From Clostridia bacterium (GTDB taxonomy: Bacteria > Bacillota > Clostridia > TANB77 > CAG-508), in contig JAUNSM010000002.1 in the NCBI GenBank assembly GCA_030539215.1, forward strand, positions 744 through 64,743: DNA of 64,000 nucleotides, written 5' to 3'. Below the pieces are notes generated by a model that saw nothing but the letters and a program-made list of their open reading frames with translations, had not been told where the DNA came from and did not search any database. The position numbers and the translations under genes are program-made. This document shows, in pieces, positions 3 to 8,359 of this stretch. How positions within the stretch are numbered: position 1 is the stretch's first letter; every line of letters starts with the position of its first letter.

Positions 3-635
3 ACAGATGCATATGTTAATACAGATGGAGCAACATATACAACAAATGCAAAGAAAAATGTAACAACATACGCACCAGTAAGTAAACAAAATGTACAAGC
101 ATGGAATTATATATCACAAACAAATTCTAAAATAGTAGCAGAAAAAATGTATAATAAAGATGGTTTAAAAAGTTATTTAGTAGACGGTTATGCATGGAAT
201 GCAGTATGTAGAGTAATACAATCAAAAACATCAAAGAATATAACAAATTCAACAACATGGGGAAATTATTATAATAATACAACTACAAATTACGAAGGAT
301 TAAATACATTGTTTGCAATGCATGGTTATAATTCTGGTTGGACAATTGCAAGTACATATAGCAAGGGAACTGTAATAGGAGCACCTAAAAATTCTGGACT
401 AAATAGATTAGAACTTGCAACAGGAGCAAGTGATGATTTTAAAGCATATAATGTATACGATATAGCAGGAAATATGTGGGAATGGACAACAGAGAATAAC
501 GGAACATACGCAGTGCGTCGTGGGGGGAGCTTCAACAACTATGGCTCTAGCTATCCTGCCGTTTACAGCCACGGTGGCGATGGTGTAGGCAATTGCGACT
601 TCAACTTCGGTTTTCGCGTCGTGCTTTATATGTAG
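3..635 (+). CDS. DGR variable (target) protein with a C-terminal FGE-sulfatase / C-type-lectin fold; 5' end lies outside the window
   Basis: The frame is open from base 3, upstream of the first Met at 147. The C-terminus ...GNMWEWT...RRGGSF...FGFRVV is the CLec/FGE fold typical of DGR targets. Its last 114 nt are the VR that pairs with the TR at 2596-2709. Confidence 0.85.
   Translation, partial: TDAYVNTDGATYTTNAKKNVTTYAPVSKQNVQAWNYISQTNSKIVAEKMYNKDGLKSYLVDGYAWNAVCRVIQSKTSKNITNSTTWGNYYNNTTTNYEGLNTLFAMHGYNSGWTIASTYSKGTVIGAPKNSGLNRLELATGASDDFKAYNVYDIAGNMWEWTTENNGTYAVRRGGSFNNYGSSYPAVYSHGGDGVGNCDFNFGFRVVLYM
512..625 (+). repeat. DGR variable region (VR)
   Basis: 114 nt match the reverse complement of 2596-2709 except at 11 positions. 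All 11 are adenines in the TR sense strand (A to G x6, T x4, C x1), mostly in AAY codons. Confidence 0.95.
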
Positions 636-636
636 C

Positions 637-661
637 ACTGACCCTTGTTGATATAGTCAGT
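637..661 (+). promoter_or_regulatory. Hairpin just 3' of the VR (possible DGR homing-associated stem-loop)
   Basis: ACTGAC (637-642) and GTCAGT (656-661) form a 6-bp stem with a 13-nt loop. It starts 2 nt after the target gene stop codon. Confidence 0.4.
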
Positions 662-718
662 ATCTAGAAGAAATAGAGATGAAATTAAATATAGAATGAA
701 GAAGAAAAAAATAAAAAA

Positions 719-748
719 GGAGTGTATAAGTAAAATTTATACACTCCT
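719..748 (+). terminator. Hairpin between the target gene and avd (terminator-like)
   Basis: GGAGTGTATA...TATACACTCC is a perfect 10-bp stem, but the following T-run is weak. Confidence 0.4.
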
Positions 749-777
749 AATATTAAAATGAAGTAAAGGGGACAAGA

Positions 778-1158
778 GTGACAAGTGTTGTAAATGAAAA
801 AAAAGATTCATCACTTATACTTATTCCAAAGTATGAAATCTATGTAGAATATATGTTGGAAATAATTTTATTACAATTACCTAGAACGGAAAAATATAGT
901 ATTGGTAATGAATATAAAACATTAATGTATGAAACATTAAGAGATATTATGTATGTTGATAAAATGGAAAAAAGTAAAAAATTGCTATATTTAAATAAAA
1001 TAGATGCACAATTAAATACTCAAAGAATTTTGCTAAGAATAATGAAAAAAATGCACTGGATAAATGAGAAAAAATTTAACTATGTAATGAATACTTTAAT
1101 AAAAGAAATTGGAATGATTTTAGGTGGGTTAATAAAATATTATGCCAAAAACAATTAG
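778..1158 (+). CDS. avd: DGR accessory variability determinant (Avd, four-helix-bundle protein)
   Basis: 126 aa, helical and basic, with a GTG start. It sits between the VR gene and the RT and overlaps the RT start, which is the canonical avd position. Confidence 0.75.
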   Translation: MTSVVNEKKDSSLILIPKYEIYVEYMLEIILLQLPRTEKYSIGNEYKTLMYETLRDIMYVDKMEKSKKLLYLNKIDAQLNTQRILLRIMKKMHWINEKKFNYVMNTLIKEIGMILGGLIKYYAKNN

Positions 1159-2167
1159 AAATGAATTTTATAAATATTTGAGTTACGACAAGCTTATGGA
1201 AGCTCATTTGAAATGTCAAAAAGGTAAAAAAAATAGAATAAATGTAATAAAATTTAATGTAAAAAAAGAAGAATATGTACAATGGTTATATGAACAAATC
1301 AAAAATAAAAAATACAAGCAAGGAAAATATACAACTTTTTATGTAAGAGAACCGAAAAAAAGAAAAATTGAAGCTGCTAGATATATGGATAGAGTTGTGC
1401 ATAGGTGGATATTTGATAATTTTCTTGAACCAGCATTTTTACCTCAAATGATAGATACTACATATGCTTGTATAAAAGGAAGAGGAATGCATAAGGCTGC
1501 TTTAGATGTTCAAAATGCAATGAAGAAATGCCAAAAAGAATTCGGAAGTTATTATATATTAAAAATGGATGTTGCAAAATATTTTCAAAGCATAGATAAA
1601 GATATTTTAATGAATATAATAAAAAGAAAGATTAAAGATTTAGATTTATTAGAATTAATTAATCAAACAATATACTATGGAAGAGATGAAAGTGGAATTC
1701 CAATTGGAAATTTAAGTAGTCAATTATTTGCAAATCTATATTATAATGAAGCAGATCAGTTTATAAAACATAAATTAAAAATAAGATATTATTTTAGGTA
1801 TATGGATGATAGTATAATTTTGTTGAAAAATAAAGAAGAATTAAAAGAAGTTAAAAGAAAAATAGAAGAATTTATTTGGGAAAAGTTACATTTAAAATTT
1901 AATAACAAAACAAATATATTCAAAAACAAACAGGGTGTTAATTTCTGTGGATATAAAATAAATGAATATAGAATGAAAATAAGGGATAAAGGAAAAAGAA
2001 GAATAAAGAAAAATATAAAGAAACTAAAAATTAAAATAAAAAATGGAGAAATTAGTTCAAAAGACGCCAAAAGATACTTGTGTGGACATTTTGGATATAT
2101 AAAGTATGCAAATACATATAATTTTATTAGAAATAATTTTGCGATTGATGAAGAAAAAATTATGTAG
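1142..2167 (+). CDS. DGR reverse transcriptase
   Basis: Contains the YMDD catalytic box (FRYMDDSIILL) and the IGNLSSQLFANLY motif (I/LGxxxSQ) characteristic of DGR RTs. It is next to avd and a VR/TR pair. Confidence 0.9.
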   Translation: MPKTIRNEFYKYLSYDKLMEAHLKCQKGKKNRINVIKFNVKKEEYVQWLYEQIKNKKYKQGKYTTFYVREPKKRKIEAARYMDRVVHRWIFDNFLEPAFLPQMIDTTYACIKGRGMHKAALDVQNAMKKCQKEFGSYYILKMDVAKYFQSIDKDILMNIIKRKIKDLDLLELINQTIYYGRDESGIPIGNLSSQLFANLYYNEADQFIKHKLKIRYYFRYMDDSIILLKNKEELKEVKRKIEEFIWEKLHLKFNNKTNIFKNKQGVNFCGYKINEYRMKIRDKGKRRIKKNIKKLKIKIKNGEISSKDAKRYLCGHFGYIKYANTYNFIRNNFAIDEEKIM

Positions 2168-2432
2168 AGGAAATATGTTCTATTTCCTCTATTATTATAT
2201 TTATTTTACTATTAATCCAGCCACAAATACAAACAAAGTCTTTTTCTGAAAAAAATCTATATACAAAATCCGCTTTTTCATCATATGCTTTAACTGTAAA
2301 TTGTGTACGATTTCCACAAAAGGTATTGATACTAATTGTGAAAGTTAGAACAGACATATGCTTTTTACTATTATAAACAAAACTATAATTTATTGGAGAT
2401 ATTATTTCCCCAGATACAAAACAATAATTCAT
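2160..2432 (-). CDS. Hypothetical small protein (possibly OB-fold/SSB-like) downstream of the TR on the minus strand
   Basis: 90-aa ORF convergent with the RT. Its beta-rich pattern resembles a short OB fold, but there is no firm motif. Confidence 0.35.
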   Translation of the reverse strand: MNYCFVSGEIISPINYSFVYNSKKHMSVLTFTISINTFCGNRTQFTVKAYDEKADFVYRFFSEKDFVCICGWINSKINIIIEEIEHISST

Positions 2433-2595
2433 ATTAAATCCTTTTTATTATTGTAGACTACTATATATTCAAAAATTTACTAATACCTCATCTACTGATT
2501 CATATTTACCTATAAAGGAAGGAATAAATCCCTTTAATATCTAATATCATAACTGTATATTTTCCTTGAAAAATATAATCACTATTGATTATTAG

Positions 2596-2709
2596 AGCAC
2601 GACGCGAAAACCGATGTTGATGTTGTAATTGCCTACACCATTGTTACCGTTGCTGTAAACGGCAGGATTGCTAGAGCCATTGTTGTTGAAGCTCCCCCCA
2701 CGATGCACT
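2596..2709 (-). repeat. DGR template repeat (TR), inverted relative to the RT and VR
   Basis: The sense strand (reverse complement) is identical to the VR apart from 11 of its 30 adenines. It is non-coding and much more GC-rich than its flanks. Confidence 0.93.
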
Positions 2710-2761
2710 TAAAATTGCACTTATGACTTATCCCTAATAAATTTTATATTGTAATAAAAAT

Positions 2762-3184
2762 TTATTTTGTATTTAAAATTGACTTTGAAATATCTTTAAT
2801 ATTATCTATAAAACTATAAGCTTTACTAACAGATAAGTTATTAGTATCAATATTAGATATTTTTAACAACAATTTGTCGATATTATCTGGAATTGAATAA
2901 TTATTTACTTTAAAAGTTGTTTGAAGATTTGAATCTATTATTTTAAAAGAATAATTAGATATATTTAATAAAGTACTATATTTTTCAAGAGATTTAATTG
3001 GAAAGCCACATTTTACAATATCTTGATTAAGATTTGTAAGCTTTAAATTTAAAATTTGCGATGCTTTTTTTGCATCTTTGTCAATGCAAATGAAAAATAT
3101 TCCAGACTTGAATAGATAAAGAGTATTTTCATTATCTTTTTCATTTGTTTTTAATGATATATAAGTATCATATAATTTACTCAT
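2762..3184 (-). CDS. MutS domain-I-like small protein (MSL-type DGR accessory candidate)
   Basis: YLFKSGIFFICIDKDAKKASQILNLKLT...CGFPIKSLEKY aligns with the MutS N-terminal mismatch-binding domain ([27 protein letters not shown]...AGIPYHAVENY). It lies immediately upstream of the TR on the same strand. Confidence 0.65.
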   Translation of the reverse strand: MSKLYDTYISLKTNEKDNENTLYLFKSGIFFICIDKDAKKASQILNLKLTNLNQDIVKCGFPIKSLEKYSTLLNISNYSFKIIDSNLQTTFKVNNYSIPDNIDKLLLKISNIDTNNLSVSKAYSFIDNIKDISKSILNTK

Positions 3185-3213
3185 AATATCCTCCTTCGTA
3201 ATAATAAAATTTT

Positions 3214-3498
3214 TTAGTTATCTATTTTTTGTTCGTTAATAATTAAATTTCTTAAATCATTAAATGCAAATTCATAAAATTTTTTACTAGTAGTTTTTAT
3301 AGAATTAAAAAGAAATTTTTCAATCATTATGTATGCATAAATTATTCTGCGTTTTAATTCTTCATCTTCTATATTTGATATTAAATCATTAAAGCGTTCA
3401 AATAATTTTAGATATTCTTTATCTTCAATGGTTATGATATCTTCAGAATGTGTAGAATATATATTCTTTATTAATGAGTTGGATCTATTTAATTTCAT
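3214..3498 (-). CDS. Hypothetical protein
   Basis: 94-aa ORF preceded by an RBS (AGGAGG, read on the minus strand). Confidence 0.5.
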   Translation of the reverse strand: MKLNRSNSLIKNIYSTHSEDIITIEDKEYLKLFERFNDLISNIEDEELKRRIIYAYIMIEKFLFNSIKTTSKKFYEFAFNDLRNLIINEQKIDN

Positions 3499-3638
3499 TA
3501 AATTTACCTCCTAGTCTTTGAAACATTATAATATATAATGTCAAAAAAAGCAACTGCCGACAGTTAAAAAAAGTAATAGTGGGCGGTGCTTAATAAAAAT
3601 ACTGGAATGTTGTATAATTAATAAAAGGTGGTGTAAAT

Positions 3639-3977
3639 ATGTCTTACTTTAATAAATTTGATAAAAAAGAAAAAACAATAGGTAGAACAGTAGAAGTTGA
3701 TGATAGATTTTATACTATACTTGAAAAGCTATCTAAAGAAACTTATGATGCATCTATAAATAAATTAGTGAATGCAGCAATAGAAAAATTAGTTGAAACA
3801 GAAAATATAAAAACTTATGATCAAACAAATAGTACAAAAATTGTTAGGACATTCCTTATTAGAAGCAGTTTAATGAATTCATTAAAAGATTTAAGAAAAA
3901 AATATAAAATTCCAGTATATTTATTAATAAATATTGCTATAAGAAATGCATTAGTTGATGAGGGATTAATTAAATAA
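3639..3977 (+). CDS. Tandem ribbon-helix-helix-like DNA-binding protein
   Basis: Shows an internal duplication: RTVEVDDRFYTILEKL..SINKLVNAAIEKLV and RTFLIRSSLMNSLKDL..VYLLINIAIRNALV. The RBS is AAAGGTGG. Confidence 0.5.
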   Translation: MSYFNKFDKKEKTIGRTVEVDDRFYTILEKLSKETYDASINKLVNAAIEKLVETENIKTYDQTNSTKIVRTFLIRSSLMNSLKDLRKKYKIPVYLLINIAIRNALVDEGLIK

Positions 3978-4080
3978 AATCTCTGTTATCTCTAAAGAAT
4001 ATTAAAAGCCCAGACAACTTTTTGTTATGGAATATTGGTAACGCACTTCAAAACAATATAATATGAAAAGAGGTGTAACA

Positions 4081-4248
4081 ATGGAGATTTTAGATAAATA
4101 CTTATTAAAGAAAGAGAAAACAATACTCAAAAAGTTTGAAATAGATAATAGTTTATATGAGCAATTAATAAAATTAGCAAATAATATTTATGATGCGTCA
4201 ATAAATAAAATTGTTAATATTGCAATAAATAATGCATTAAATAGTTAG
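4081..4248 (+). CDS. Single RHH-like paralogue of the 3639-3977 protein
   Basis: Shares the ...LYEQLIKLANNIYDASINKIVNIAINNAL segment with the upstream gene. RBS AGAGGTG precedes the ATG at 4081. Confidence 0.5.
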   Translation: MEILDKYLLKKEKTILKKFEIDNSLYEQLIKLANNIYDASINKIVNIAINNALNS

Positions 4249-4347
4249 TAGCAATGTATTCTTTTTTATAGTAGTGTGATAAAATATATGAGACTGAACT
4301 GTTAATATAATATGAACAACTATAAAAAAAGAAGGAGAGTTATAAAA

Positions 4348-4596
4348 ATGAAATGCAGTAAATGTAGAAATATTTTAAATGAAGAGAAAAGTAATTATAT
4401 ATGGAGAGAAGGTAGTAAAACAGTTATCATAGAGAATACTCCAGTGCTTTTTTGTGATAATTGCATAAAACAATTTTATACAGAAGATGTTGTAAAAAAT
4501 ATTAATGATATTGCAGAAAATATTAAAGAATTACCAGTTAAACTTTCAGTTATAGATTATAATGAGTTAAAGAGCTATATTAGTAATAAAGAGTAA
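4348..4596 (+). CDS. YgiT/MqsA-type zinc-finger protein
   Basis: MKCSKC...(27 aa)...CDNC forms a zinc ribbon. RBS GAAGGAG precedes the ATG at 4348. Confidence 0.5.
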   Translation: MKCSKCRNILNEEKSNYIWREGSKTVIIENTPVLFCDNCIKQFYTEDVVKNINDIAENIKELPVKLSVIDYNELKSYISNKE

Positions 4597-4747
4597 TGGA
4601 TTAAAGGGACAGAATGCGTTTGTATTCTGTCCTTTCAAATCTTAATATAGTATATAAGATATGTATGAAAGTTATAAAAAATATATACAAAAACTTACAA
4701 TTATGTTATACTTTTTATATTAAAAGTAAAAGTAAAAGAGGTAAGTG

Positions 4748-5437
4748 ATGGAAAATATAATTTATATTATTTTGTTACTAGTAACAACAATTTTATTCAA
4801 GTTTGTATTTAAAATTAATTTTAAGAAAGCAAAAAGTTTGAAAGAAAATAAAGAAATGGAAAAAATAACAGATAAATTTCCAAAAAATATAGAAGTTGCA
4901 AAACAAATGCTAGAAATGCTAGGCAATAAAGAGGTAAAAGTAGAAGAAGCAAAAAATACTCAAACTAGTTTATATATTGCAATTACAAATAAAATTTCAA
5001 TTGCAGATATGAAAAGCAACTATTCAAGGCTTCAAACAATAGCACATGAATGTTTACATGCATGTCAAGATAGAACAATGCTTTTATTTAATTTTGTATT
5101 TTCAAACATAAATATACTATATTTTTTAATTATTACTATACTTACAATATTTAAAGTTATAAACAATACAATGTTGCAAATTGCAATATTAATTTTGTTT
5201 ACATTAATTCAATTTAGTGTAAGAAGTTTTTTAGAAATAGATGCAATGACAAGAGCAAAATTTTTGGCAAAAGATTATATAGAAAAAGAAAATTTATGTA
5301 CAAACAAAGAAAAAGAACAATTATTAAAAGAATATGACAAAATAAACAAAATAGGAATTCCATTTGTAATAGATAACTTATTAACAAATGGATTAATAAA
5401 AATTTTAATATATATAATAATAAGTGGAATTGTATAA
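4748..5437 (+). CDS. Membrane protein with an HExxH metalloprotease motif
   Basis: Contains [11 protein letters not shown] (HExxH) and several hydrophobic segments. Confidence 0.5.
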
Positions 5438-5468
5438 ATGTGATTTATTTAATGCAAGGGGAGGAATT

Positions 5469-7280
5469 ATGCAAAACAACCAAAAACATATTAGAAATTT
5501 TAGTATTATAGCACATATAGATCATGGAAAGTCTACTTTAGCAGATAGACTAATAGAAAAAACAGGTCTTCTTTCTTCAAGAGAAATGGAAAGCCAAATT
5601 TTAGATAATATGGATTTAGAAAAAGAGCGTGGAATCACAATAAAAGCACAAGCAGTTAGAATGTTATATAAAGCTAAAGATGGACAAGAATATATATTTA
5701 ATTTAATAGATACACCAGGTCATGTGGATTTTAATTATGAAGTATCAAAAAGTCTAGCAGCATGTGAAGGAGCAATATTAGTAGTTGATAGTAGTCAAGG
5801 AGTAGAGGCACAAACACTTGCAAATGTCTATTTAGCTTTAGAAAATGATTTAGATATATTACCTGTTATTAATAAAATAGATTTACCAAATGCAAGACCA
5901 GAAGAAGTAAAAAAAGAAATAGAAGAAATTATAGGAATTCCTGCTGATTCTGCACCATGTATATCTGCAAAAACTGGACTTAACATAGAAGAAGTATTAG
6001 AAAAAATAGTAACAGAATTTAAACCTCCGATAGGTGACGAAACAAAACCTTTAAAATGTTTAATATTTGACTCGTTTTATGATAATTATAAAGGAGCATT
6101 AAGTTATATAAGAGTAGTACAAGGTACAGTAAAAACAGGTGATGAAATTTTATTTATGGCAACAAACAAAAGATTTATTGTATCAGAGCTTGGATATTTA
6201 GAGCCAGGGGTTACAGTGCCATGTGATAAACTTTTAGCTGGAGAAGTTGGATATATTGCAGCTAGTGTAAAAAATGTATCTGACTTACATGTTGGAGATA
6301 CAATAACAAATGCTAACTATCCAGCAGAAGAGCCATTACCAGGATATAAAAAAGCAAATTCAATGGTATATTGTGGCTTATACCCTTTAGATGGTGGAGA
6401 TTATGAAAATTTAAAAACAGCATTAGAAAAACTAAAATTAAATGATGCAGCATTACAATATGAGCCAGAAACTTCTATCGCATTGGGGTTTGGTTTTAGA
6501 TGTGGATTTTTAGGATTGCTACATTTAGAAATTGTACAAGAAAGATTAGAAAGAGAATTTGATTTAAGTTTGATTACAACAGCTCCATCAGTTATATATA
6601 AAGTATATAAGAAAACAGAAGAAATGATTGAATTATATAACCCAGTAGACCTTCCACCAATTCAAAAAATAACATATATAGAAGAACCAATAGTAAAAGC
6701 ACAAATAATGCTTCCAAAAGAATTTGTAGGTAATGTAATGGAAATATGCCAAGAAAGGCGAGGCACGTATATTGACATGAAATATTTAGATAATACTAGA
6801 GTTGCATTAGAATATGAGCTTCCATTAAATGAAATTATATATGATTTTTTTGATACATTAAAATCAAAGACAAAAGGATATGCATCATTTGACTATGAGT
6901 TTAAAGAATATAGAAAATCAGACTTGGTTAAATTAGATATACATATAAATAGTGAATCAGTTGATGCATTATCATTTATTGTACACAAAGATACAGCATA
7001 TGCAAGAGGTAGAAAAATGGCGGAAAAATTAAAAACAGTAATTCCAAGACAATTGTTTGAAATACCTATACAAGCTGTAGTTGAAGGAAAAATAATTGCA
7101 AGAGAAACAATATCAGCAATGAGAAAAGATGTTCTTGCTAAATGCTATGGTGGAGATATTACTAGAAAGAAAAAATTGTTAGAAAAACAGAAAAAAGGTA
7201 AAAAGAAGATGAGACAAATAGGAAATGTAGAAATACCACAAGAAGCATTTCTATCTGTGCTTAAATTAGATGATGAATAG
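5469..7280 (+). CDS. lepA: Translation elongation factor 4 (LepA)
   Basis: [28 protein letters not shown] and NKIDL form the GTPase motifs, and the LepA C-terminus ...[15 protein letters not shown] is present. Confidence 0.95.
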
Positions 7281-7291
7281 GAGAATTAAAT

Positions 7292-8065
7292 TTGAAAAAA
7301 AAAGTAAATAATGTAGAACAAGAAAAAATCTCTGACCAAATAGAAGGTAGAAATTCAGTTTTAGAACTTTTACAATCAAATAAAGATATAAATAAAATAT
7401 TTATTGCAAAAGGAGAAAAACATGGTTCAATAAATAAAATCATATCAATTGCAAAACAAAGAAAAATAGTAATTGTAGAAGTAGAAAGACAAAAATTAAA
7501 TGTAATATCTGAAACAAATAATCACCAAGGGGTAATTGCAATTGTTCCTCCATTTAATTATGTAGAAGTAGATGATATATTAAATGAAGCTAAATCAAAA
7601 AAAGAACAACCCTTTGTATTAATTTTAGATGGAATAGAAGATCCACACAATTTGGGAAGTATTATTAGAACTGCAGAGACAGCCGGAGTCCATGGAATAA
7701 TTATACCTAAAAGAAGAGCTTGCGGAGTTAACAGTACAGTGGCAAAAACTTCTGCAGGTGCGGTAGAACATATGAAAATAGCAAGAGTAAACAATATAAA
7801 TGAAACAATAAAATATTTAAAAGATAATGGAATATGGATATGCGGAACAGATGGGGAAGCAAAAACTTATTACTATGATCAGGATTTAAAAACAGCAATA
7901 GCAATAATTATAGGAAGCGAAGGGTTTGGAATAAGCAGATTAGTAAAACAAAATTGTGACTTTTTAGTAAAAATTCCAATGAAAGGAAAAGTTACTTCAC
8001 TTAATGCATCAGTATCAGCAGGAATAGTAATTTATGAGGCGGTAAAACAAAGAAATATTGGATAA
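7292..8065 (+). CDS. rlmB: 23S rRNA 2'-O-ribose methyltransferase, TrmH/RlmB family
   Basis: Has a SpoU-type C-terminal domain (LILDGIEDPHNLGSIIRTAE, IIGSEGFGIS, SLNASVSAGI). TTG start. Confidence 0.85.
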   Translation: MKKKVNNVEQEKISDQIEGRNSVLELLQSNKDINKIFIAKGEKHGSINKIISIAKQRKIVIVEVERQKLNVISETNNHQGVIAIVPPFNYVEVDDILNEAKSKKEQPFVLILDGIEDPHNLGSIIRTAETAGVHGIIIPKRRACGVNSTVAKTSAGAVEHMKIARVNNINETIKYLKDNGIWICGTDGEAKTYYYDQDLKTAIAIIIGSEGFGISRLVKQNCDFLVKIPMKGKVTSLNASVSAGIVIYEAVKQRNIG

Positions 8066-8176
8066 AACCTTGACAAAGTGTAAAATAATTAGTATACTTT
8101 TATGGTGACAAAAAAATAAAAAAGTATGTATTAACATAGACATATAGATATAAAGCATGCAAGGGAGGGAATGAAT

Positions 8177-8359
8177 ATGGCACAACCAAAAAGAAGATGG
8201 TCAAAACAAAGAACACATACAAAAAGGTCAACATGGAAATTAGAAACACCAAATATTGCAACATGTAAACATTGTGGTGAACCAGTATTACCACACAGAT
8301 TATGTGATAATTGTGGATATTATGATGGGAAAGAAATAATAGTAAAAAAAGATGCCTAA
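8177..8359 (+). CDS. rpmF: Ribosomal protein L32
   Basis: Starts MAQPKRRWSKQR and carries a CxxC...CxxC zinc ribbon. RBS GGGAGGG. Confidence 0.85.
   Translation: MAQPKRRWSKQRTHTKRSTWKLETPNIATCKHCGEPVLPHRLCDNCGYYDGKEIIVKKDA

What the first reader, a model, noticed from the sequence alone, without database searches (positions are those of the whole stretch)
3..3184. Complete diversity-generating retroelement with textbook adenine-only VR/TR divergence
VR 512-625 and TR 2596-2709 (reverse complement) are 114 nt long. They differ at 11 positions, all of them TR adenines, so 11 of the TR's 30 adenines are changed. There are no non-A differences. The changes fall mainly in AAY codons: N to Y, Y, H, G, D and D, plus Y to C and I to F twice. 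They lie in the C-terminal CLec/FGE fold of the target protein. avd (778-1158) and an RT with IGxxxSQ and YMDD motifs (1142-2167) lie between them. The element therefore looks active or recently active.
Basis: partly seen in the sequence, partly recalled or inferred. Interest (0 to 1): 0.7.

Follow-up and report, generated by a model that had tools for sequence, protein, structure and literature searches.

The report
Retroelement with flipped template module

Summary
VR 512-625 and the reverse complement of 2596-2709 are 114 nt long and differ at 11 sites. All 11 are TR adenines (P about 1e-7).

It is a DGR. Its parts are:
- an Avd gene;
- an RT closest to the Bordetella phage DGR RT;
- an A-free, GC-rich 3' boundary;
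- an FGE/CLec-type target C-terminus.

The target gene runs off the window start, so the element is not "complete" here.

- ORF 2762-3184(-) is an MSL (MutS-domain-I-like) accessory gene.
- ORF 2160-2432(-) is a 90-aa SSB-like OB-fold protein. It sits beside the DGR in 70 of 80 relatives. I found no paper describing it as a DGR accessory.
- Rfam RT-14 RNA (2453-2597, minus strand) abuts the TR 3' end.
- The block TR + RT-14 + SSB-like gene is inverted. All 52 relatives with a detectable TR/VR pair, and all 23 checked for RT-14, carry it on the RT strand.

After the inversion the block lies co-directionally downstream of MSL, which gives a plausible new transcription route.

Current activity cannot be tested, because no same-species sequences exist in the databases searched.

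Verdict: a known kind of element, in a variant with extra accessory genes and an unusual rearrangement.

The parts
3..635 (+). 3' part (210 codons plus stop) of the DGR target gene. The ORF is open from the window start. The C-terminus is of the FGE-sulfatase/CLec type.
   Evidence: Pfam FGE-sulfatase E=0.0084, below the curated cut-off. Full-length relatives of 494-533 aa score at or above the cut-off and begin with a pilin-like hydrophobic N-terminus.
512..625 (+). Variable repeat (VR)
   Evidence: 114 nt, 11 differences from the TR, all at TR adenines; the changes affect 10 codons.
607..625 (+). A-free, GC-rich 3' end of the VR, identical in the TR. This is the IMH-like boundary. The VR-specific flank follows it, and its motif GTAGCACTGA..CTG is conserved in relatives.
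   Evidence: alignment A2 of 46 VR 3' ends. A weak possible hairpin lies at 618-642 (z = -1.97); covariation does not support it.
778..1158 (+). avd (accessory variability determinant), 126 aa, pI 9.4
   Evidence: Pfam bAvd 56.8 bits against a cut-off of 40. NF033474 E=1e-17, below its cut-off; pI.
1142..2167 (+). DGR reverse transcriptase, 341 aa, with IGNLSSQ and YMDD intact
   Evidence: the best solved-structure match is 8ub7_A at 151 bits over residues 3-329, against 71 bits for the best group II intron RT. RVT_1. The C-terminal tail NNFAIDEE matches the tails of relatives.
2164..2192 (.). Terminator-like hairpin, readable on both strands, at the point where the RT gene and the SSB-like gene converge
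   Evidence: 11-12 bp stem followed by a T-rich tail on both strands.
2160..2432 (-). SSB-like OB-fold protein, 90 aa, with no C-terminal tail. It is a candidate DGR accessory gene.
   Evidence: 96 representative homologues, nearly all 70-140 aa; 58 of 73 match Pfam SSB. AF2 pLDDT 92.6. Foldseek matches SSB/PriB, probability 1.00, TM up to 0.86; found beside the DGR in 70 of 80 relatives.
2453..2597 (-). RT-14 RNA (Rfam RF02921), abutting the TR 3' end. It occupies the position of the DGR spacer RNA.
   Evidence: 89.3 bits against a gathering score of 48.1, full length 1-144. It has the same position relative to the TR in 23 of 23 relatives, always on the RT strand there.
2596..2709 (-). Template repeat (TR), on the strand opposite to avd, RT and VR
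2725..2737 (-). Motif TTAGGGATAAGTC about 15 nt upstream of the TR. It is seen, with small variations, 10-30 nt upstream of the TR in most of the 14 relatives inspected. It is probably the 5' part of the DGR RNA.
2160..2750 (.). Block that is inverted relative to all relatives. It holds the pre-TR motif, TR, RT-14 and the SSB-like gene. The breakpoints lie at about 2155-2175 and 2739-2765.
   Evidence: The longest exact inverted repeat across the two junction regions is 8 nt.
2762..3184 (-). MSL (MutS-like) accessory gene, 140 aa. It contains a MutS domain I.
   Evidence: PF01624 37.8 bits against a cut-off of 20.6; alignment to Taq MutS. Phe at the MutS F36 position in 52 of 52 homologues, and Glu38 never kept; present in 59 of 80 relatives.

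Best explanation
This is a chromosomal diversity-generating retroelement of an uncultured, low-G+C gut Clostridia bacterium. It belongs to a large clade with this standard layout: target(VR) - avd - RT - [pre-TR motif, TR, RT-14 RNA] - small SSB-like gene - MSL.

Mechanism, inferred from established DGR biology:
- An RNA containing the TR and the RT-14 spacer is bound by the RT-Avd complex.
- cDNA synthesis starts at the TR 3' boundary and misincorporates opposite template adenines.
- The cDNA replaces the VR in the C-terminal FGE/CLec-type domain of a pilin-like-anchored surface protein. This recodes up to 28 codon-position-1/2 adenines.

Shown here: the parts, their intactness, the A-only TR/VR pattern and their conservation.

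In this genome the roughly 590-bp TR/RT-14/SSB-like block has been inverted. It now lies directly downstream of MSL and in the same direction. The template RNA must therefore be made from the minus strand, by MSL read-through or from a local promoter, and must act in trans on RT-Avd made from the plus strand. I rate continued function after the inversion at about 0.6.

I propose that the two extra proteins serve the poorly understood cDNA-integration step. The tail-less SSB-like protein would coat the single-stranded cDNA or the exposed target strand. MSL, which keeps the mismatch-wedging Phe but not the Glu, would occupy the densely mismatched heteroduplex and shield it from host MutS. Both roles are inferred, not shown.
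For: DGR identity:
- A-only TR/VR divergence (P about 1e-7).
- Avd above the Pfam cut-off.
- The RT is closest to the solved DGR RT 8ub7_A, at 151 bits, and carries IGNLSSQ and YMDD.
- 28 of 30 TR adenines are in codon positions 1 or 2.
- The 3' boundary is GC-rich and A-free.

Clade and layout:
- 170 RT relatives were found in GTDB genomes, all in gut Clostridia-type MAGs.
- 2144 database proteins match at E <= 1e-60.
- The SSB-like gene is in 70 of 80 loci and MSL in 59 of 80.
- RT-14 follows the TR in 23 of 23 loci.

Inversion:
- Nucleotide alignments to 10 relatives show it.
- All 52 relatives with a detectable TR/VR pair have the TR on the RT strand.
- Five further nearest relatives have avd+ RT+ SSBl+ MSL-.
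- An independently built Logan contig is identical over window 465-8206.
- There is no inverted repeat longer than 8 nt at the junctions.

Intactness:
- All four ORFs are full length compared with relatives.
- RT-14 scores 89 bits against a gathering score of 48.
- There are no non-A changes in 84 non-A positions.

SSB-like fold.

MSL motif.

Literature:
- MSL is a recognised DGR accessory, and TR and RT can lie on different strands (PMC5758913).
- Deleting host mutS raises retrohoming 5- to 10-fold in Bacteroides (10.1101/2024.11.15.621889).
- ExoI and lagging-strand template exposure affect retrohoming (PMC12875486).
- Positive GC skew on the + strand suggests the target is co-directional with replication, which is the favoured orientation.
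Against: - The inverted arrangement is unique among the 57 relatives checked. It could therefore be a recent, possibly disabling, accident.
- RT-14 in the window has the lowest score of the 24 copies (89 bits against 91-126).
- No promoter for the minus-strand TR RNA could be identified above background in this AT-rich DNA (28 sites found, 32 expected).
- No population data exist to show VR variation.
- The roles proposed for the SSB-like protein and MSL rest on fold and context only.
- The SSB-like family was found starting from DGR loci. I could not survey its members for DGR linkage in the reverse direction (searches failed).
- Neither protein was found in 80 more distant viral DGR loci, so they are not general DGR requirements.
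Confidence: 0.8

Rival explanations
1. The element is a recently disabled DGR. The inversion separated the TR/RT-14 RNA from the avd-RT transcript on which it normally rides. The A-only VR/TR pattern is a relic of retrohoming that took place before the rearrangement.
For: - All 52 relatives with a detectable TR/VR pair, and all 23 checked for RT-14, keep the TR module on the RT strand, usually directly after the RT gene. This suggests selection for co-transcription.
- The window's RT-14 has the lowest score among the copies.
- No convincing minus-strand promoter was found.
Against: - There are no non-A substitutions in the VR/TR pair and no frameshifts in avd, RT, the SSB-like gene or MSL.
- The block landed co-directionally downstream of an expressed-looking gene with a strong Shine-Dalgarno sequence. 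That gives it a transcription route.
- TR and RT on different strands occur in other DGRs judged functional (PMC5758913).
- A very recent inactivation would look identical, so this rival cannot be excluded.
Confidence: 0.3
2. The inversion is an assembly artefact and the real genome has the standard avd-RT-TR-SSB-like order.
For: - The source is a metagenome-assembled genome.
- The arrangement is unique among relatives.
Against: - A separately built Logan contig from run SRR24915786 is 100% identical across both junctions. It may, however, derive from the same reads.
- The longest exact inverted repeat between the two junction regions is 8 nt. That is far below any assembler k-mer, so there is no graph path that would flip the block.
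- The tail-to-tail 8-nt overlap of the RT and SSB-like ORFs gives both genes clean stops.
Confidence: 0.05
3. It is not a DGR. Instead it is another RT system (retron, group II intron or defence-associated RT) next to a chance or duplicated repeat.
For: The RT also gives sub-threshold matches to group II intron, retron and DRT models.
Against: - All of those matches fall far below the curated cut-offs and far below the match to the solved DGR RT.
- Avd is present.
- The 11 of 11 adenine-specific differences have P about 1e-7.
- The same TR/VR logic recurs in 52 relatives.
Confidence: 0.01

Closest known systems
MSL-containing DGRs (Architecture D of Wu et al. 2018, PMC5758913; Msl-encoding Bacteroides DGRs, 10.1101/2024.11.15.621889)
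   Same: - It has avd, RT, TR/VR and a small MutS-domain-I-like gene.
- MSL co-occurs with avd, and no HRDC gene is present.
- The target ends in a C-type-lectin/FGE-type variable domain.
   Different: - The host is a low-G+C Clostridia lineage.
- There is an additional conserved SSB-like gene.
- The TR module is inverted so that it follows MSL.
- The target in relatives has a pilin-like N-terminus rather than being a type V pilus tip protein.
Bordetella phage BPP-1 DGR (mtd-avd-TR-brt)
   Same: - The RT is the closest solved homologue.
- Avd is present.
- Mutagenesis is adenine-specific.
- The 3' boundary is GC-rich.
- A structured spacer RNA follows the TR. In BPP-1 this is RT-10 (PMC5737381); here it is RT-14.
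   Different: - This element is chromosomal, not phage-borne.
- The gene order is avd-RT-TR rather than avd-TR-RT.
- The TR is on the opposite strand.
- There are two extra accessory genes.
- No clear GC-rich cruciform follows the VR.
Rfam RF02921 RT-14 RNA (Weinberg et al. 2017, PMC5737381)
   Same: It is a full-length match above the gathering score, next to an RT gene.
   Different: The paper left the role of RT-14 open and only speculated that further RT motifs belong to DGRs. Here RT-14 starts at the last bases of the TR in 24 of 24 loci, which places it as the DGR spacer RNA.
Bacterial SSB / PriB OB-fold proteins
   Same: - The predicted fold matches SsbA, SsbB and PriB.
- 58 of 73 family members match Pfam SSB weakly.
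- A conserved aromatic residue (Y50) aligns with a Phe of the SSB ssDNA-binding surface.
   Different: - It is only 90 aa, with no disordered linker or acidic C-terminal tip.
- Sequence identity to SSBs is 10-18%.
- It is encoded inside a DGR cassette.

Membership tests
Diversity-generating retroelement | TR/VR repeat pair whose differences are (almost) all at TR adenines | tested here: met
   11 of 11 differences are at TR adenines over 114 nt. P = 8.5e-8.
Diversity-generating retroelement | RT of the DGR clade, with a [I/V/L]GxxxSQ motif and an intact YxDD catalytic motif | tested here: met
   IGNLSSQ and YMDD are present; the best PDB match is the DGR RT 8ub7_A at 151 bits, against 71 bits for a group II intron RT.
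Diversity-generating retroelement | VR at the 3' end of a protein-coding target gene, with TR adenines concentrated in codon positions 1 and 2 | tested here: met
   the VR ends 8 nt before the stop codon, and 28 of 30 TR adenines are in codon positions 1 or 2.
Diversity-generating retroelement | Target variable domain of the C-type lectin / FGE-sulfatase fold | tested here: inconclusive
   the window fragment scores 16.2 bits against a cut-off of 23.3; three of four full-length relatives score at or above the cut-off. No structure was modelled.
Diversity-generating retroelement | GC-rich IMH-like 3' boundary shared by VR and TR, followed by divergent flanks | tested here: met
   19 identical, A-free nt at 607-625, after which the flanks diverge; the VR-specific flank is conserved in relatives.
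Diversity-generating retroelement | Demonstrated mutagenic retrohoming (VR variation within a population) | not testable with these tools
   No same-species sequence was found. The RT cluster has one member and the nearest relative is 80% identical. The target has no homologue above 63% identity.
MSL-containing DGR (Architecture D, Wu et al. 2018) | Small (112-283 aa) MutS-like protein encoded in the cassette, together with avd and without HRDC | tested here: met
   the 140-aa ORF matches MutS_I at 37.8 bits against a cut-off of 20.6, avd is present, and there is no HRDC hit.
MutS mismatch-recognition domain I | Phe-x-Glu mismatch-binding motif | tested here: not met
   Phe is kept in 52 of 52 MSL homologues. 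The Glu position is Ile, Val or another residue, never Glu. MSL is therefore MutS-domain-I-like but not a canonical mismatch sensor.
Rfam RF02921 RT-14 RNA | Covariance-model score at or above the curated gathering score | tested here: met
   89.3 bits against 48.1, covering model positions 1-144 of 144.
SSB (Pfam PF00436) family | OB fold of the SSB type | tested here: met
   the model has pLDDT 92.6; the top 50 Foldseek matches are almost all SSB or PriB, with probability 1.00 and TM 0.63-0.86.
SSB (Pfam PF00436) family | Sequence match above the Pfam gathering score, and a C-terminal acidic protein-interaction tip | tested here: not met
   the window protein gives no SSB hit at E <= 1. Family members match only weakly (best 2.3e-7). 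The protein ends at residue 90 (…EHISST) with no tail.
SSB (Pfam PF00436) family | Binding of single-stranded DNA | not testable with these tools
   This needs a biochemical assay.

The most novel reading that the evidence does not exclude
The tail-less SSB-like protein and MSL form a dedicated cDNA-integration module of a large gut-Clostridia DGR clade. The mini-SSB would coat the mutagenised cDNA or the exposed target strand without recruiting host SSB partners such as ExoI. MSL would cap the mismatch-dense heteroduplex against MutS. In this genome the template RNA has been re-wired into the same minus-strand operon as these two genes, which would show that the DGR RNA works fully in trans from the RT-Avd transcript.
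Probability: 0.3. Interest if true: 0.65.

Novelty: new variant of a known kind. Interest (0 to 1): 0.45.

Why it matters
DGRs are well known. How the mutagenised cDNA enters the target gene is still unresolved.

Recent work implicates host MutS (10.1101/2024.11.15.621889). It also implicates ExoI and exposure of the lagging-strand template (PMC12875486).

This clade of DGRs encodes its own SSB-like protein in 70 of 80 loci and a MutS-domain-I-like protein in 59 of 80 loci. It therefore points to element-encoded factors for exactly that step. It also offers small, tractable proteins to test in reconstituted systems and in DGR-based directed-evolution tools.

The results also assign a concrete role and position to an orphan Rfam motif: RT-14 is the spacer RNA fused to the TR.

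The inverted template module, if functional, is a natural experiment. It would show that the template RNA need not be co-transcribed with the RT.

Tried and rejected
- **A second VR in the window.** I searched with the IMH-like 17-mer allowing 3 mismatches and with blastn of the TR. Only the known pair was found.
- **The missing 5' part of the target gene.** An exact-protein look-up of the RT returned one contig, identical to window 465-8206 and starting inside the target gene.
- **Same-species strains, to test VR diversity and date the inversion.** Homologue searches with the target (best 63% identity) and the RT (next best 80%) found none.
- **The SSB-like protein in the word-indexed protein search**. 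It found only itself, so I used the exhaustive HMMER search instead.
- **Single-sequence AF2 model of the SSB-like protein**. pLDDT was 58.7, too low to use. It was replaced by the alignment-based model.
- **A BPP-1-like GC-rich hairpin after the VR.** Only a weak 8-bp stem at 618-642 was found (z = -1.97). Relatives do not covary to keep it. I do not claim it.
- **My first placement of the left inversion breakpoint**, at 2140, with a replaced RT C-terminus. This was wrong. The tail NNFAIDEE matches the RT tails of L005, L016 and L022.
- **Promoter scan**. It was uninformative in 25% G+C DNA: 28 sites found against 32 expected.
- **Prophage or defence-system context.** There were no close viral relatives of the RT (at most 41% identity). 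There were no PADLOC hits apart from generic RT models.
- **Supplementary tables of Wu et al. 2018.** They are not held. I could not check whether the SSB-like gene is one of their PAG1-4 candidates.


Full report
**1. The observation**

Window 512-625 (+) and the reverse complement of 2596-2709 are both 114 nt. They differ at 11 positions: 517, 540, 552, 570, 576, 577, 579, 595, 597, 600 and 606. At each one the TR base is A. The TR has 30 adenines, and none of the 84 non-A positions differs.

The probability that 11 random differences all hit A positions is 8.5e-8. The pair is also the longest inverted repeat in the first 6 kb.

One was left out: H>R at 517. 28 of the 30 TR adenines are in codon positions 1 or 2.

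Both repeats are 49-55% G+C in a 26% G+C genome. The last 19 nt (607-625) contain no A, are GC-rich and are identical in the two copies. After that the flanks diverge. This is the expected IMH-like boundary.

No other VR exists in the 64 kb window.

**2. The core genes**

- ORF 778-1158 matches Pfam bAvd above its cut-off.
- ORF 1142-2167 is an RT with IGNLSSQ and YMDD.
- The RT's best solved homologue is the 328-aa RT of entry 8ub7, at 151 bits over residues 3-329. The best group II intron RT scores 71 bits. From its sequence I recognise 8ub7 as the Bordetella phage DGR RT; that identification is my own knowledge.
- Matches to retron, group II intron and defence RT models are far below their cut-offs.

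The target ORF is open from base 3, so its 5' part is outside the window. The NCBI contig is only 749 nt longer than the window in total. An independent Logan contig starts at window position 465.

The window fragment gives a sub-threshold FGE-sulfatase match. Full-length homologues in relatives are 494-533 aa. They start with a pilin-like hydrophobic N-terminus (KGITLIALV...); its N_methyl match is sub-threshold. They end in an FGE-sulfatase domain that scores at or above the cut-off in three of four proteins tested.

The target is therefore most likely a membrane-anchored, surface-exposed binding protein. That is inferred from relatives.

**3.

(a) *MSL.* ORF 2762-3184(-), 140 aa, matches MutS domain I at 37.8 bits against a cut-off of 20.6.
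- This is the MSL accessory class that Wu et al. found in 16 of 372 DGRs, always together with avd (PMC5758913). It is also reported in Bacteroides DGRs (10.1101/2024.11.15.621889).
- In 52 unique homologues the Phe that wedges into the mismatch in MutS is invariant. The Glu of the Phe-x-Glu motif is never present.

(b) *SSB-like protein.* ORF 2160-2432(-), 90 aa, had no family hit on its own.
- An exhaustive HMMER search found 96 representative homologues, nearly all 70-140 aa.
- 58 of 73 of these match Pfam SSB weakly.
- A profile of the family hits SSB chains in the PDB.
- An alignment-based AlphaFold model has pLDDT 92.6.
- Foldseek places the model among SsbA, SsbB and PriB OB folds, with probability 1.00 and TM up to 0.86.
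- The protein has no linker or acidic tail.

(c) *RT-14 RNA.* Rfam RF02921 matches 2453-2597(-) at 89.3 bits against a gathering score of 48.1, over its full length. It starts at the last two bases of the TR.
- Weinberg et al. described the RT-1 to RT-19 motifs.
- They tied only RT-10 to the BPP-1 DGR and speculated that other RT motifs also serve DGRs (PMC5737381).

(d) *Pre-TR motif.* The motif TTAGGGATAAGTC at 2725-2737(-) lies about 15 nt upstream of the TR. It recurs, with small variations, 10-30 nt upstream of the TR in most of the 14 relatives inspected.

**4. Relatives**

The RT has 170 relatives in GTDB species genomes. All are uncultured gut Clostridia-type MAGs from rabbit, chicken, ruminant and human samples. 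It has 2144 database homologues at E <= 1e-60. Viral-contig relatives are at most 41% identical.

Among 80 fetched loci:
- HMMs find the SSB-like gene beside the DGR in 70 and MSL in 59.
- Neither gene occurs in 80 more distant viral DGR loci.

RT-14 follows the TR in 23 of 23 loci scanned.

A TR/VR pair with at least 80% A-specific differences was detected in 52 loci. In every one the TR is on the RT strand, usually directly after the RT gene.

The nearest relatives are L002, L004, L006, L009 and L162-L167, at 65-80% RT identity. They read avd(+) RT(+) TR(+) RT-14(+) SSB-like(+) MSL(-).

**5. The inversion**

Nucleotide alignments show the following:
- Window 2443-2763 (TR plus RT-14) and 2178-2390 (SSB-like gene) match these relatives in reverse orientation.
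- avd-RT (about 780-2150) and MSL (2940-3185) match in forward orientation.

So a block of about 590 bp, holding the pre-TR motif, TR, RT-14 and the SSB-like gene, is inverted here.

The RT C-terminus is not affected. Its tail NNFAIDEE matches the tails in L005, L016 and L022, and homology to those loci runs to 2149-2158.

The breakpoints lie at about 2155-2175 and 2739-2765. At the left one, the RT and SSB-like ORFs overlap tail to tail by 8 nt. The right one lies between the pre-TR motif and the MSL stop codon.

The longest exact inverted repeat across the two junction regions is 8 nt. This argues against an assembler-made flip and against a dedicated invertase site. The Logan contig has the same order, although it may come from the same reads.

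After the inversion the minus strand reads MSL > pre-TR motif > TR > RT-14 > SSB-like gene > hairpin. The plus strand reads target > avd > RT > the same hairpin (2164-2192, terminator-like on both strands).

**6. How it most likely works**

*Established for DGRs (PMC5758913 and the papers cited above).* RT-Avd binds an RNA made of the TR and its spacer. It synthesises cDNA that is error-prone at template adenines. The cDNA then replaces the VR.

*Shown here.* All parts are present and intact, and the VR carries the A-specific signature.

*Inferred.* In this genome the template RNA is transcribed from the minus strand, together with or just after MSL, and acts in trans. Wu et al. note that the TR and the RT can be on different strands. 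I rate continued function at about 0.6 for three reasons:
- No component shows decay.
- The block landed in a transcribed orientation.
- The VR/TR pair has no non-A drift.

The alternative is a recent disabling accident whose A-only pattern is a relic. I rate it at about 0.3.

*Proposed roles for the extra proteins.*
- Deleting host mutS raises Bacteroides retrohoming 5- to 10-fold, in an all-or-nothing manner.
- ExoI inhibits retrohoming non-catalytically, and targets whose cDNA-complementary strand is the lagging-strand template are favoured.
- I therefore propose that MSL shields the mismatch-dense heteroduplex from MutS. I also propose that the tail-less SSB-like protein coats the cDNA or the exposed target strand.
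- GC skew is positive along the + strand. The target is therefore probably co-directional with replication, which is the favoured orientation.
- These roles are hypotheses drawn from fold and context.

**7. Novelty**

The DGR itself, MSL and RT-14 are all known kinds.

I found no paper linking an SSB-like or OB-fold gene to DGR cassettes. I could not check the PAG1-4 candidates in the Wu et al. supplement, which is not held.

I rate the finding a new variant of a known kind for three reasons:
- The SSB-like gene is regularly present in this clade.
- RT-14 can now be placed as the TR-fused spacer RNA.
- The inverted template module is unique among the relatives examined.

Interest is moderate.

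Noticed in passing
window 25405-25487 (+): Rfam RF02924 skipping-rope RNA, 71.3 bits against a gathering score of 36.7. This is an orphan structured RNA motif of unknown function.
   Followed up: no
window 13254-13617 (+): Bacterial RNase P class A RNA, 300.8 bits. Together with lepA (5424-7280) and a SpoU methylase gene (7292-8065), it shows that the DGR sits in ordinary chromosomal context, not in a prophage.
   Followed up: partly
window 3639-3977 (+) and 4063-4248 (+): Two paralogous small ORFs of 112 and 61 aa. Their DNA is 71% identical in register, with a spacing of 445 nt (D2/D3). A homologue of the first lies divergently next to MSL in L004, L006 and L033. It has no family assignment. 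The 94-aa ORF 3214-3498(-) between it and MSL has no homologue in the relatives.
   Followed up: partly
window 718-748: A 12-bp hairpin between the target stop codon and the avd start. It has a T-run only on the minus strand and an A-run before it on the plus strand. It would terminate antisense transcription coming from the avd side. Its role for the plus-strand target-avd transcript is unclear.
   Followed up: no
window 626-660 and alignment A2: Non-coding positions just after the target stop codon are conserved across 46 relatives (consensus GTAGCACTGAnCnCTGnTAGCGAT). This may be a VR-specific recognition element that distinguishes the VR from the TR. It is not a clear hairpin.
   Followed up: partly
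L001 start (= window 465); window start; many contigs: Assemblies repeatedly break inside or just upstream of the DGR target gene or VR. Most target homologues come from contigs of 1-2 kb. This fits VR heterogeneity or paralogous target copies breaking assembly graphs, but I did not test it.
   Followed up: no
L016 5719-7305 and 8001-9587; L022 474-1958 and 10659-11273; L020 9031-9167 and 12941-13074: Some relatives carry two paralogous target genes. L020 has two VRs matching one TR (17 and 30 differences, mostly at A).
   Followed up: no
L165 303-2577: In one near relative, an IS21-like element (Mu-transposase C-terminal and IstB domains) sits where the target gene lies in other loci, directly upstream of avd.
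   Followed up: no
L034-L037, L039, L040, L043, L047, L048, L054, L055, L060: In a sub-clade the SSB-like gene lies on the minus strand directly downstream of MSL, forming an MSL > SSB-like operon, while TR and RT-14 stay on the RT strand. The orientation of the SSB-like gene has therefore changed more than once in this family.
   Followed up: partly
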